64,000 bases of DNA from an uncultured Clostridia bacterium (GTDB lineage: Bacteria > Bacillota > Clostridia > TANB77 > CAG-508): assembly GCA_934129785.1 (NCBI GenBank), contig CAKOWW010000003.1, positions 24,315 through 88,314 on the forward strand, given 5' to 3'. This document shows positions 18,246 to 20,606 of this stretch, in pieces (position 1 is the stretch's first letter; every line of letters begins with the position of its first letter). A model generated the notes under the pieces. That model had not been told where the DNA came from, did not search any database, and was given only the letters and a program-made list of their open reading frames with translations. Position numbers and translations under genes: made by a program.

Positions 18246-20606
18246 TTAATTAGATTTTTTATTTTTTTTAAAATTAACAACAATTGCATCATCATTATCA
18301 AATAAATATTTAGAATCTGTTGTGTCAATTTGAATTGGATCTATTTCATTTCTTTCATCATGAAAATCTAAATTTTTTAAATTAAACTTTTTAGGAGATG
18401 TATCATCTTCTGTTTCAGTAGTTACGCCATCAGAATATTTACCAAAATCAAATTTCTTTATTTTATGTAGTTCTTTGTATTTAGATTCTAGAAAAGCTAG
18501 TTTACCAGGACCAACAACTGGTTTACCACCACTTGATTTTATTTTATAAGCACAATCTTTTAAACCTAAATTTTGAAGTTTTCCAGGTTTAAAGTATTGT
18601 GTAAATGTCCATTTAACACCACCAACTTTACTGTCATATTCACCCGTAGCCATATTCATACTATTTGAATAATCCCATTGTCTATATTTACCAAAATCAT
18701 TTGACCACCATTCAAGTTCATCATAATCTCCATTGCCAGTAAAGATTTTGTTAGCACAGTTAGAAAGAATAGTGCTTCTATAATTAACTGATAATTCTGG
18801 AGTTTCAAGTTGTTGTAAACTTTGAGTAGAAATAATAGTTCCTACTTTATATTTTCTATATAATGTGAACATTGCTTCAGTATCTTTACAAATGAAGTCA
18901 GCAAATTCATCAATATATAAGAAATGTGGAATTCTAGAATTTTCAATTCCAGGTCTTCTTAAAACTGCATTTTGCATAGAAATTAAGAAGAATAAACCAA
19001 AAGCTTTATGTGCTGCAGCTCCTAAATCTCCACGTCTTGTGCAAATAAATGTAACTTCAGCATTTGAAAGCATTTTATCAAAATCTATATTATTGTGTCT
19101 GTTACACAAGATACTTTTAATTCCAGGAATTCTTAATAAATTATCTAATTGACTAATTACAGAGTAAATGTACTTTTCAACGCTATTTTTTCCTGGAGCA
19201 TCTGAATAGAAATTCTTTTTAAAATAGGCAAGTGTCACACCGTATTTTTCTTTTAAATCTTGATCATGTGCAAGTATTTCACACATTTTTTCTATTAAGT
19301 CAAAGTTAGTAAACATTTTTAGCATATCTTCCATATTTGGAAGTTTACCTTCATTCATTCTTGGATACATTTCTTTTAATAATATTGCTAAATTTTCAAT
19401 TGCTTGCATAACAATATCTTCTTTGTATGCTTCATCGACATCGGCATGTGCAGTGTTGTACATTGCTTTTATAACTGCTGAAATTGTAATTGCAATCTTT
19501 GATGGGTCATCATATGTAAATGGATTTAGGCCTATTGAGTTAGGATTACTTGGGTCTATTATATTATAAGATATTCCAAAGTTTTTACATACATCAATCA
19601 TGTGACCGATTACTTCATAATCTGGAGCCATTAAAGTTAAACCAATATTTCTATAAGTTATTTCATTTCCCATTGTATTTAATATCATTTTTTTAACATA
19701 TGCTTTAAATATTGCTTCTTTTCCATATGTAGGGGTAAGCATATTTAAGTTAAAGTTTTGATTTAAATAATTATTATCATATGGAGCAACTAGAGTTGCA
19801 ATACCAGTTTTTAAAGCTGTATAACCAAGTTCTTTTGAAACCTCTTTAAAGAAATATTTTCTTTCAATATCTCTTGCAAATAGAGGCTCATAGATTAAAG
19901 ATGTTTTTCCAGAACCAGAACCACCACATACAAATAATGACTGATATCTTGAAACTTCCGGAATTACTATATTTTTACCAGTCTCTGAGTTGTAACATAA
20001 ATATACTTCACAAGTATAAGGCCCTGTTCCTGCTTTTTTATCAGATAAATCAATTCCACCATAATCCCATATAGATTGAACTTTAGCTTTACTATCATTT
20101 ACACCAAAGAATAGCCATTTGAAAAGTGGAAAAATTGTAGATAATGGCAAATATAAAGAAATACTAACCATTGCTGGTGTTACTAAATCAGAAAAGTCTG
20201 TAATTAGTTCTGCATAATTTGGTACTGATAAAAGTAATAGCCATGCACCCATGTTTAACCATTGTGTAAACATAGAAATTGCAATTATATATAAACCAAT
20301 TATATAAATATAAAATAGTGTTACTTTTTTTGCTTTAGAATTTGCAAATTTTGAAGGACCTGAAAATAAAAATGCAAACACAGGGCATGCCAGTGCTAAA
20401 GTATATTGTATAGGTCCCCAATATGAATAAGAAACACCAGTAAAAAACATAAGTAACATTTCAACTAATCTGTCAACAGCTAGATATACTGAAACTAATG
20501 TTAATACATATGTTGCAAATGTGTTTCTATCTGTGTGCAAAAATTTCAAAAATTTATCTATATATTTCATTTGAAAAATCCTTTCATTTCTTAAAATAAT
20601 ACACAT
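18246..20606 (-). CDS. VirD4/TraG/TraD-like type IV coupling protein homolog (membrane-anchored FtsK/HerA-superfamily P-loop ATPase)
   Basis: N-terminal TM helices; Walker A VCGGSGSGKTS; Walker B LYIDEFADF; C-terminal TIISTQSLQQL resembles the TraG-D_C motif. Confidence 0.6.
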   Translation of the reverse strand: MCIILRNERIFQMKYIDKFLKFLHTDRNTFATYVLTLVSVYLAVDRLVEMLLMFFTGVSYSYWGPIQYTLALACPVFAFLFSGPSKFANSKAKKVTLFYIYIIGLYIIAISMFTQWLNMGAWLLLLSVPNYAELITDFSDLVTPAMVSISLYLPLSTIFPLFKWLFFGVNDSKAKVQSIWDYGGIDLSDKKAGTGPYTCEVYLCYNSETGKNIVIPEVSRYQSLFVCGGSGSGKTSLIYEPLFARDIERKYFFKEVSKELGYTALKTGIATLVAPYDNNYLNQNFNLNMLTPTYGKEAIFKAYVKKMILNTMGNEITYRNIGLTLMAPDYEVIGHMIDVCKNFGISYNIIDPSNPNSIGLNPFTYDDPSKIAITISAVIKAMYNTAHADVDEAYKEDIVMQAIENLAILLKEMYPRMNEGKLPNMEDMLKMFTNFDLIEKMCEILAHDQDLKEKYGVTLAYFKKNFYSDAPGKNSVEKYIYSVISQLDNLLRIPGIKSILCNRHNNIDFDKMLSNAEVTFICTRRGDLGAAAHKAFGLFFLISMQNAVLRRPGIENSRIPHFLYIDEFADFICKDTEAMFTLYRKYKVGTIISTQSLQQLETPELSVNYRSTILSNCANKIFTGNGDYDELEWWSNDFGKYRQWDYSNSMNMATGEYDSKVGGVKWTFTQYFKPGKLQNLGLKDCAYKIKSSGGKPVVGPGKLAFLESKYKELHKIKKFDFGKYSDGVTTETEDDTSPKKFNLKNLDFHDERNEIDPIQIDTTDSKYLFDNDDAIVVNFKKNKKSN

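What the first reader, a model, noticed from the sequence alone, without database searches (positions are those of the whole stretch)
18246..20606. Lone VirD4/TraG-like type IV coupling protein homolog embedded among housekeeping and sporulation genes
A 786-aa protein with N-terminal TM helices, Walker A (GGSGSGKT), Walker B (LYIDEFADF) and a TraG-D_C-like C-terminal motif (TIISTQSLQQL) lies between a permease and the yaaL-bofA pair. No relaxase, VirB4 or other conjugation genes are nearby. An orphan coupling-ATPase in this context may have been recruited for another DNA or protein translocation role, for example in competence or sporulation, or may be the last remnant of an integrated element.
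Basis: partly seen in the sequence, partly recalled or inferred. Interest (0 to 1): 0.55.

Follow-up and report, generated by a model that had tools for sequence, protein, structure and literature searches.

The report
Chromosomally fixed lone conjugation-type coupling ATPase
A gene for a membrane-anchored motor protein of the kind that plasmids use to push DNA into other cells sits alone among housekeeping genes of an uncultured gut Clostridium, and it is not a decaying leftover: it has been kept intact at the same chromosomal spot in at least 80 related species, so the host appears to use it for something still unknown.

Summary
The ORF is real. It is a type IV coupling protein (T4CP) homologue: Pfam TraG-D_C and T4SS-DNA_transf score above threshold, Walker A and B are intact, and an AlphaFold model best matches Cagbeta/VirD4, TrwB and DotL. 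No relaxase, VirB4 or other conjugation gene lies in the 64-kb window.

It is not a recent remnant. In 80 species-level genomes (69-81% aa identity) it keeps the same position between ArsP_2 and yaaL-bofA. Median dN/dS is 0.07, and the promoter, RBS and terminator are conserved.

Relatives down to 26% identity share an unusual four-helix membrane domain. In sister clades the gene lies next to a Replic_Relax (MOBC-type nuclease/relaxase) gene inside a housekeeping neighbourhood. On a Clostridium beijerinckii plasmid, homologues of T4CP, an S1-domain protein and Replic_Relax lie within about 7 kb of each other.

Best reading: a plasmid-derived mobilisation module became fixed in the chromosome, and in this clade the ATPase was separated from its nuclease partner. 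It probably still works as an ATP-driven DNA or nucleoprotein translocase. Its cellular role is inferred only. I could not determine whether this genome keeps the partner elsewhere. A sporulation or competence role has no direct support.

The parts
18246..20570 (-). T4CP-like coding sequence, 774 aa plus stop.
20094..20528 (-). N-terminal membrane domain, aa 15-159. Four long predicted helices (15-44, 53-70, 79-114, 119-159). K/R-rich N-terminus and 71-78 loop suggest an N-in/C-in topology.
   Evidence: Hydropathy. AF2 secondary structure, pLDDT 76-90. 78% mean column conservation across 81 orthologues. Shared by relatives down to 26% identity.
19902..19925 (-). Walker A, GGSGSGKT (aa 216-223).
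   Evidence: Near-invariant across 81 orthologues: seven of eight positions at 98% or more. G216 invariant and G221/K222/T223 conserved in 90% or more of 16 distant relatives.
19071..19505 (-). Helical insertion, aa ~356-500, corresponding to the all-alpha domain of T4CPs.
   Evidence: AF2 model helices 356-502. The Foldseek alignments to TrwB and Cagbeta span 500-590 columns.
18894..18920 (-). Walker B, LYIDEFADF (aa 551-559).
   Evidence: IDEF conserved in the clade. Distant relatives P0131-P0136 carry DD in place of DE.
18651..18920 (-). Pfam TraG-D_C match (aa 551-640 of the 774-aa form). Includes TIISTQSLQQL.
   Evidence: 47.4 bits against a cut-off of 22.
18249..18428 (-). Disordered C-terminal tail rich in charged residues (aa 715-774). 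Carries a conserved short motif, DPIQxD...FDNDDAIV.
   Evidence: pLDDT about 30. The motif is conserved within the clade and in the 51-53% identical relatives P0122 and P0123, whose clades carry the adjacent Replic_Relax gene.
20609..20637 (-). Conserved promoter-like element: TTGTTT, 17 nt, GATAAT.
   Evidence: Read. At least 80% conserved across 48 orthologous upstream regions. The generic scan alone is not informative: 21 hits against 21.2 expected.
20579..20585 (-). Ribosome-binding site GAAAGGA, with 8 nt between it and the ATG at 20570.
18206..18239 (.). Terminator-like hairpin of 14 pairs, directly after the stop codon, between the convergent T4CP-like and ArsP_2 genes.

Best explanation
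The gene encodes a functional, vertically inherited member of the type IV coupling protein (VirD4/TraG/TrwB) ATPase superfamily that has become a fixed chromosomal gene of a clade of uncultured low-GC gut Clostridia (nearest named relative: Clostridium sp. CAG:343).

Shown:
- T4CP fold and intact ATPase motifs.
- A family-specific four-helix membrane domain.
- Strong purifying selection and a fixed locus in at least 80 species.
- Its own conserved promoter, RBS and terminator.
- In sister clades the orthologue lies tail-to-tail with a Replic_Relax (PF13814, MOBC-type wHTH plus PD-(D/E)XK) gene inside a housekeeping neighbourhood.
- Homologues of T4CP, an S1-domain protein and Replic_Relax lie within about 7 kb on a C. 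beijerinckii plasmid, and T4CP and Replic_Relax homologues are adjacent on an MGE-like contig.

Inferred:
- The lineage captured a plasmid or IME-type mobilisation module (coupling ATPase plus nicking or DNA-recognition protein) and kept it.
- In the window's clade a local rearrangement separated the ATPase from the nuclease gene.
- The protein most likely still assembles as a membrane-anchored ring and uses ATP to move DNA, or a protein-DNA complex, to or across the cytoplasmic membrane. The conduit would be either a T4SS supplied in trans by a co-resident conjugative element or its own 4-TM domain (24 helices per hexamer, FtsK/SpoIIIE-like).
- The conserved disordered C-terminal motif is a candidate docking site for a partner.

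The biological purpose (DNA donation or export versus a chromosome-handling role) is not established.
For: T4CP identity:
- Pfam TraG-D_C 47.4 bits (cut-off 22) and T4SS-DNA_transf 23.3 bits (cut-off 20.1).
- AF2 model with pLDDT 81 and pTM 0.68.
- Best PDB matches are Cagbeta/VirD4 8dol (E 2e-12), TrwB (target-normalised TM 0.62-0.70) and DotL, ahead of DndH, HerA and VirB4.

Fixed host gene:
- 80 GTDB species loci at 69-81% aa identity. YaaL is present in 76, ArsP_2 and BofA in 74 each, and GlmS in 67.
- Median dN/dS 0.074 and maximum 0.122 over 298 pairs.
- Walker A and B conserved, and even conservation across the membrane domain, the ATPase domain and the tail.
- Conserved promoter and RBS and a terminator.

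Wider family:
- Full-length relatives at 26-53% identity share the membrane domain.

Partner:
- A ~310-aa protein is adjacent in L081, L082, L084 and L088.
- These proteins are orthologous at 39-70% identity.
- They score 28.5-30.7 bits on PF13814, cut-off 25.3.
- PF13814 corresponds to the MOBC relaxase superfamily, and streptococcal IMEs with MOBC carry a VirD4 coupling protein (PMC5357655). Replic_Relax is a PD-(D/E)XK domain usually fused to HTH (PMC3424549).
- 28 loci (24 from the metagenome scan plus L081, L082, L084 and L088) show the arrangement p592-RluB-RluB-(S1)-RR facing T4CP, followed by MurJ and HU in most.

Mobile-element origin:
- The closest plasmid T4CPs are 29% identical over 78% of the query.
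- C. beijerinckii p1 carries an S1-domain protein and an RR homologue (E 8e-19, with a similar N-terminal motif) about 7 kb from its T4CP, alongside DUF3854 and integrases.
- Distant relatives sit in MGE-like contexts.
Against: - No T4SS channel gene, VirB4 or relaxase was found in the Pfam-scanned part of the window (about 1-42 kb) or within 6 kb in 80 related genomes. The usual context that defines T4CP function is therefore missing.
- The Replic_Relax partner is not in the window (tblastn). I could not show that this genome has one anywhere; attempts to link RR-only loci to this clade failed.
- No biochemical or expression data exist.
- The promoter assignment rests on sequence conservation only.
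- DNA as the substrate is inferred from family membership, not shown.
- Some distant family members have degenerate motifs: DD in place of DE, and P0139 lacks Walker A. ATPase activity is therefore not universal in the family.
Confidence: 0.6

Rival explanations
1. It is still part of a working mobilisation system. Together with a Replic_Relax nickase encoded elsewhere in the genome, the coupling ATPase delivers chromosomal DNA from a chromosomal oriT into a T4SS borrowed from a co-resident conjugative element, as CloDF13 MobB/MobC or MOBC-type IMEs do. This would give Hfr-like chromosome transfer. It is a specific version of the main explanation.
For: The T4CP plus MOBC pairing is the known layout of mobilisable elements that carry their own coupling protein (PMC5357655). 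The pair is adjacent in 28 loci of sister clades. The C-terminal tail motif shared with the 51-53% identical relatives P0122 and P0123, whose clades have the adjacent partner, is retained in the window protein.
Against: No integrase, oriT or helper T4SS was identified. The partner was not found in the 64-kb window. Long-term vertical retention at dN/dS 0.07 is unusual for a purely selfish transfer function.
Confidence: 0.2
2. It was recruited for sporulation, for example DNA or protein transport between mother cell and forespore, and acts with the divergently transcribed yaaL-bofA genes.
For: Divergent adjacency to yaaL-bofA holds in 76 of 80 species. The window contains sporulation genes (bofA, yqfD). 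In sister clades the neighbour on the other side carries Polysacc_synt, MurJ and MatE domains, which from my own knowledge resembles SpoVB-type proteins.
Against: The yaaL-bofA adjacency is confined to this clade; relatives sit next to RR/S1/RluB and MurJ/HU. The conserved upstream element is TTGTTT-17-GATAAT, which is sigma-A-like, and I recognised no sigma-E, F, G or K type motif. The gene has its own terminator and is not in an operon with sporulation genes.
Confidence: 0.1
3. It is a housekeeping FtsK/SpoIIIE-like chromosome pump. A 4-TM membrane anchor plus a ring ATPase would clear or segregate chromosomal DNA at the septum, possibly with the RR nuclease, in a lineage with a small genome.
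For: The architecture (four N-terminal TM helices, a linker and a RecA-type motor) parallels FtsK/SpoIIIE (family knowledge). In sister clades RR is the last gene of a same-strand run with S1-domain and RluB genes.
Against: No Pfam FtsK_SpoIIIE match at E<=1. No FtsK or SpoIIIE structure appears among the 50 matches listed, and T4CPs top the list. Whether these genomes lack ftsK or spoIIIE could not be tested.
Confidence: 0.07
4. It is a decaying remnant of an integrated conjugative or mobilisable element.
For: Its closest non-chromosomal relatives are plasmid and MGE coupling proteins. No other transfer gene is nearby.
Against: Full-length and intact in 80 species at one locus. dN/dS is 0.07. 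Catalytic motifs, promoter, RBS and terminator are conserved. GC content is the same as the flanks.
Confidence: 0.03

Closest known systems
Conjugative type IV coupling proteins TrwB (R388), VirD4/Cagbeta and DotL
   Same: Overall fold: RecA-like nucleotide-binding domain with an inserted all-alpha domain. Membrane-anchored N-terminus. Walker A and B. Pfam TraG-D_C and T4SS-DNA_transf signatures. Disordered C-terminal tail rich in charged residues.
   Different: Only 13-15% sequence identity in the structural alignments, and no PDB hit by sequence at E<=1. Four long TM helices with minimal external loops; from my own knowledge, canonical T4CPs usually have two. No T4SS or relaxase in the neighbourhood. 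Vertically inherited chromosomal gene.
Coupling proteins of large clostridial plasmids (C. beijerinckii p1 WP_264647377.1; C. botulinum pFWSKR40E1 WP_172688299.1)
   Same: Closest plasmid-borne relatives: about 29% identity over aa ~100-745. The C. beijerinckii plasmid also carries homologues of the S1-domain and Replic_Relax proteins that accompany the chromosomal family.
   Different: The plasmid proteins are longer (about 920-1000 aa) and the match starts at about aa 100, so most of the N-terminal membrane domain is not aligned. They sit among integrases, DUF3854 and a DUF87 ATPase. The window gene sits among core genes.
Mobilisation modules made of a coupling protein plus a MOBC relaxase (streptococcal IME class 8; CloDF13 MobB/MobC from my own knowledge)
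   Same: In sister clades the orthologue is paired with a PF13814/MOBC-family gene, the same two-gene logic (PMC5357655).
   Different: No integrase or excisionase, and a conserved housekeeping position across deeply diverged lineages. In the window itself the MOBC-type gene is absent from the 64 kb.
NCBIfam NF045973, VirD4-like conjugal transfer protein, CD1115 family
   Same: Best NCBIfam hit, covering aa 331-641 of the 786-aa ORF scanned.
   Different: 44.5 bits against a cut-off of 250, so it is not a member.

Membership tests
Type IV coupling protein superfamily (VirD4/TraG/TraD/TrwB) | P-loop nucleotide-binding domain with Walker A and Walker B | tested here: met
   GGSGSGKT and YIDEF are present and conserved in 81 orthologues.
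Type IV coupling protein superfamily (VirD4/TraG/TraD/TrwB) | Family HMM signatures above curated thresholds | tested here: met
   TraG-D_C 47.4 bits against 22. T4SS-DNA_transf 23.3 against 20.1. TrwB_AAD_bind 15.5 against 20.5, which is below threshold.
Type IV coupling protein superfamily (VirD4/TraG/TraD/TrwB) | TrwB-like fold with an all-alpha domain inserted in the nucleotide-binding domain | tested here: met
   AF2 model with pLDDT 81. The top 39 Foldseek PDB hits are Cagbeta, TrwB and DotL, with target-normalised TM 0.56-0.70 for Cagbeta and TrwB and 0.44 for DotL.
Type IV coupling protein superfamily (VirD4/TraG/TraD/TrwB) | N-terminal transmembrane anchor | tested here: met
   Four predicted helices, aa 15-159. 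The number differs from the usual two, which I state from my own knowledge.
Type IV coupling protein superfamily (VirD4/TraG/TraD/TrwB) | Genetic linkage to a T4SS (VirB4 ATPase and channel genes) | tested here: not met
   No such gene among the 30 window ORFs scanned between about 1 and 42 kb. The 6-kb flanks of the 80 orthologous loci were compared only with the window's own genes and with RR. The precomputed Pfam lists for sister-clade loci show no VirB4 within 8-10 kb.
Type IV coupling protein superfamily (VirD4/TraG/TraD/TrwB) | Genetic linkage to a relaxase | tested here: not met
   Not in the window. Met in sister clades, where a PF13814/MOBC-type gene is adjacent.
Type IV coupling protein superfamily (VirD4/TraG/TraD/TrwB) | Recruits substrates to a secretion channel; ATP hydrolysis stimulated by DNA | not testable with these tools
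   Requires biochemistry or genetics.
NCBIfam conju_CD1115 (equivalog) | Whole-protein score at or above 250 bits | tested here: not met
   44.5 bits.
FtsK/SpoIIIE DNA translocases | FtsK_SpoIIIE motor-domain signature | tested here: not met
   No Pfam hit at E<=1. No FtsK or SpoIIIE structure among the 50 matches listed.
   No Pfam DUF87 or HerA hit. HerA structures appear only at E of about 1e-6, below all T4CP hits.
IME- or CloDF13-type mobilisation module (T4CP + MOBC relaxase + oriT, with or without integrase) | Adjacent MOBC/Replic_Relax gene | tested here: not met
   Absent from the window and from the 6-kb flanks in 80 species. Present in sister clades.
IME- or CloDF13-type mobilisation module (T4CP + MOBC relaxase + oriT, with or without integrase) | Integrase or excisionase, or plasmid replicon, and an oriT | tested here: inconclusive
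   No integrase in the flanks of the window gene or of the sister-clade pairs. oriT was not searched for.
Known anti-phage defence systems (PADLOC) | Significant match to a defence-system component | tested here: not met
   Only mad8 at 23 bits, E 1e-5, consistent with generic P-loop similarity.

The most novel reading that the evidence does not exclude
The four-TM T4CP-like ATPase, with or without the Replic_Relax nuclease and S1-domain protein, is a T4SS-independent, host-domesticated DNA-translocation system. It would be a new chromosomal machine derived from conjugation genes that exports DNA or handles the chromosome in a large clade of uncultured gut Clostridia, using its own membrane domain as the conduit.
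Probability: 0.2. Interest if true: 0.75.

Novelty: new variant of a known kind. Interest (0 to 1): 0.5.

Why it matters
Coupling proteins are regarded as components of mobile conjugation and secretion systems. One that is inherited vertically as a strongly constrained core gene, without any secretion channel nearby, would be a case of host capture of conjugation machinery. It also gives a concrete candidate for DNA export, chromosome mobilisation or an FtsK-like function in abundant but uncultured human-gut Clostridia. The recurrent T4CP/Replic_Relax/S1-domain association also defines a module that MOB-suite typing, as given in PLSDB, labels 'non-mobilizable' on the two clostridial plasmids examined.

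Tried and rejected
- Sequence search of PDB: no hit at E<=1. Only the fold comparison worked.
- PADLOC: only a weak P-loop hit, so a defence role was not pursued.
- Generic promoter scan: no better than shuffled sequence. I relied on cross-species conservation instead.
- Search for the Replic_Relax partner in the window and in 80 orthologous loci: none found.
- A metagenome scan with the RR alignment found 26 RR loci with no adjacent T4CP ('class B'). I tried to show that these are the window's clade, without success:
  - Shared genes gave only weak hints. L168 matches window genes 58320-61278 at 68-69% aa. A HAD hydrolase is shared by L035 and L148. A pilin-like gene is shared by L137 and L026.
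  - Contig-length fingerprints of RR and T4CP proteins gave no shared contig.
  - Class-B RR belongs to Clostridium sp. CAG:571, Clostridium sp. 27_14 and similar organisms, with contigs up to 1.86 Mb. These are probably other species, so the link was dropped.
The final model gave only weak PDB matches (FokI, PadR/MarR). These fit the published wHTH plus PD-(D/E)XK assignment but do not prove it.
- Literature searches for orphan or chromosomal T4CPs in Clostridia found nothing specific.
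Full report
**Observation.** The window has 21-34% G+C per 1-kb window and no compositional break at the locus. All quoted motifs are present. All 120 listed homologues cover 97-99% of the query and are 771-790 aa long, and those aligned begin at MKYIDKF. A GAAAGGA ribosome-binding site precedes that ATG and is conserved in 48 orthologous loci, whereas the upstream ATG is not. The gene is therefore best placed at 18246-20570, 774 aa.

The neighbours are as stated. An ArsP_2-family permease is convergent on one side. 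YaaL (DUF2508) and BofA are divergent on the other, followed by GlmS. Pfam scans of 30 ORFs between about 1 and 42 kb found housekeeping, sporulation, competence (ComEC), agr-like and other genes, but no relaxase, VirB4 or other conjugation gene. The region from 42 kb to the end was not scanned; I read 42-58 kb as a ribosomal-protein operon from gene order only.

**What the protein is.** Pfam gives TraG-D_C at 47.4 bits (cut-off 22) and T4SS-DNA_transf at 23.3 bits (cut-off 20.1). TrwB_AAD_bind is just below threshold. The best NCBIfam hit, the CD1115 VirD4-like family, scores 44.5 bits against a cut-off of 250, so the protein is not a member of that family. No PDB sequence matches at E<=1.

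An AlphaFold2 model built on 16 diverse relatives has pLDDT 81 and pTM 0.68. Its best structural matches are Cagbeta/VirD4 (E 2e-12), TrwB (target-normalised TM 0.62-0.70) and DotL. DndH-C, HerA and VirB4 rank well below.

The model shows these regions:
- Four long N-terminal helices (aa 15-159). The charge distribution fits an N-in/C-in four-pass topology.
- A RecA-like domain carrying Walker A (216-223) and Walker B (551-559).
- A helical insertion at about aa 356-500.
- A disordered tail (715-774).

**Not a remnant.** A scan of one genome per GTDB species found 192 loci encoding relatives. The best 80 are 69-81% identical to the window protein. In these, YaaL is present in 76, ArsP_2 and BofA in 74 each, and GlmS in 67. 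The longer order RnhB-PyNP-CdaA-TruA-DUF2651-ArsP_2 / T4CP / YaaL-BofA / GlmS-MTAN recurs with few exceptions.

Pairwise dN/dS over 298 orthologue pairs has a median of 0.074 and a maximum of 0.122. Conservation is even across the membrane domain (78%), the ATPase core and the tail, and the Walker motifs are conserved.

Upstream, TTGTTT-17 nt-GATAAT and the RBS are conserved across species. A 14-pair hairpin follows the stop codon. This is a monocistronic, constrained, vertically transmitted gene.

**The wider family and its partner.** An exhaustive profile-free search of 1.84 billion cluster representatives found 2,930 relatives. Among them is a series of full-length proteins at 26-53% identity that share the N-terminal membrane domain and a C-terminal [DG]PI motif.

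I examined the genomic context of four lineages: P0122 (53% identical), P0123 (51%), P0124 (43%) and P0128 (39%). In each, the gene is followed tail-to-tail by a ~310-aa gene and then by S1-domain, RluB or other housekeeping genes. No integrase or VirB4 lies within 8-10 kb. These ~310-aa proteins are mutually orthologous at 39-70% identity. They score above the Pfam threshold for Replic_Relax (PF13814), matching the model over nearly its full length.

The literature equates PF13814 with the MOBC relaxase superfamily and reports that streptococcal IMEs with MOBC relaxases carry a VirD4 coupling protein (PMC5357655). The domain is classified as PD-(D/E)XK, usually fused to HTH (PMC3424549). A model of the partner (pLDDT 78) shows three parts: an invariant but disordered N-terminal 41 residues, a winged helix, and an alpha/beta domain. 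Its PDB matches are weak (FokI, PadR/MarR) and only fit that assignment. A PHROG annotated 'replication initiation by nicking' also matches it weakly.

A metagenome scan with the partner alignment returned 80 loci. Counting these together with L081, L082, L084 and L088, 28 loci show p592-RluB-RluB-(S1)-RR facing T4CP, followed by MurJ and HU in most. Another 26 have the same upstream run and RR but no T4CP, and no T4CP remnant, within at least 3.5 kb downstream. RR evolves much more slowly than the T4CP: 78-82% against 48-58% identity for comparable splits. In the loci with the adjacent pair, PyNP and RnhB lie about 8 kb from RR. The window's arrangement, with PyNP about 5 kb from the T4CP, therefore looks like a local rearrangement of the same chromosomal district.

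**Origin.** More distant relatives (27-30% identity) lie in MGE-like contigs. The closest plasmid-borne proteins are about 29% identical over about 78% of the query. They are on large C. beijerinckii and C. botulinum plasmids. On C. beijerinckii p1, an S1-domain protein and a 303-aa RR homologue lie about 7 kb from the coupling protein, among DUF3854 and integrase genes. The RR homologue matches at E 8e-19 and has a similar N-terminal motif. On contig L092 an RR homologue directly follows the T4CP. The chromosomal genes thus descend from, or share ancestry with, a plasmid transfer or mobilisation module.

**What remains open.** RR is not in the window or in the 6-kb flanks of the 80 orthologous loci. 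I tried to show that the RR-only loci belong to the window's clade, using shared genes and contig-length fingerprints of cluster members. No link was obtained. The RR-only proteins are annotated from Clostridium sp. CAG:571, Clostridium sp. 27_14 and similar organisms, and lie on contigs up to 1.86 Mb that carry none of the T4CP proteins I sampled. Whether the window's genome has RR is therefore unresolved.

One indirect hint favours a retained partner. The disordered C-terminal motif DPIxxD...FDNDDAIV is conserved within the window's clade. It is also present in the 51-53% identical relatives P0122 and P0123, whose clades carry the adjacent RR.

**Mechanism.**
- *Shown:* a T4CP-fold ATPase with intact motifs and a polytopic anchor, under purifying selection.
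- *Inferred from family knowledge:* ring assembly and ATP-driven translocation of DNA or a nucleoprotein substrate, ancestrally prepared by the RR nuclease.
- *Route:* undetermined. It could be a T4SS supplied in trans or the protein's own membrane domain.
- *Cellular role:* undetermined.

Sporulation and competence roles have no direct support. The yaaL-bofA adjacency is clade-specific and the promoter is sigma-A-like. A defence role is not supported.

**Verdict.** The finding is a new variant of a known kind: a chromosomally fixed, vertically inherited T4CP with a distinctive four-helix anchor, derived from a T4CP/Replic_Relax/S1 module. Interest is moderate at 0.5. The conservation pattern is unexpected for a coupling protein, but function is inferred only and the organisms are uncultured.

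Noticed in passing
window 11405-11902 (+) and 29400-30191 (+): Two pilin-like ORFs with a short charged N-terminus followed by GITL(V/I)AL...hydrophobic helix. Neither has a Pfam hit. A similar gene recurs in related loci (L137, L026). A published study reports conserved pilin-like proteins in the uncultured gut order TANB77 (PMC11680825). Whether these ORFs are the same family was not tested.
   Followed up: partly
window ~15200-15944 (+): truA appears split by a frameshift. The N-terminal part (MRNIKL...GVHAL) is in one frame up to a stop at about 15397. The C-terminal PseudoU_synth_1 part continues in another frame (GQVANF...). This could be a pseudogene or an assembly error.
   Followed up: partly
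window 16487-16798 (+) and 16903-17229 (+): Tandem paralogous small ORFs (103 and 108 aa) with the same first 18 residues (MCTNDKEDFDMNKEKTVQ). Neither has a Pfam hit. A homologue of the second one was seen in only 2 of the 80 related loci.
   Followed up: no
window 24460-25479 (+): YhgA-like putative transposase (PF04754). Present in only 2 of 80 orthologous loci, so probably a strain-specific insertion.
   Followed up: no
window 28058-28693 (+), 31324-32673 (-), 32657-33430 (-): agr-like quorum-sensing genes: AgrB, a GHKL histidine kinase and a LytTR response regulator. The second pilin-like ORF lies between them.
   Followed up: no
L082 10522-11460, L088 12494-13435, L118/L143/L168 10001-10939 (Replic_Relax proteins): The most conserved part of the chromosomal Replic_Relax proteins is an N-terminal stretch that AlphaFold predicts as disordered (invariant SPFA.R..E.K.FDGKDGY.S.NQ). 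A related motif is present in the C. beijerinckii plasmid homologue. This looks like a docking or recognition peptide.
   Followed up: partly
L088 15701-17479, L082 13642-15486 and the equivalent gene in 50 of the 80 RR loci from the metagenome scan: A conserved 590-615-aa protein with no Pfam hit heads the same-strand run p592-RluB-RluB-(S1)-RR in loci both with and without the adjacent T4CP.
   Followed up: no
L179 (C. beijerinckii plasmid NZ_CP107023.1) and L180 (C. botulinum pFWSKR40E1): These large plasmids are typed 'non-mobilizable' by MOB-suite. Yet L179 carries a T4CP, DUF3854, an S1-domain protein and a Replic_Relax homologue. L180 carries a T4CP and a DUF87 ATPase. Their transfer potential may be underestimated.
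   Followed up: partly
L019, L026, L029, L034, L035 (between the T4CP and ArsP_2 genes): Several related species have 1.5-5 kb insertions at the T4CP/ArsP_2 junction, including a YhgA-like transposase and a pilin-like gene. The terminator region seems to be an insertion hotspot.
   Followed up: no
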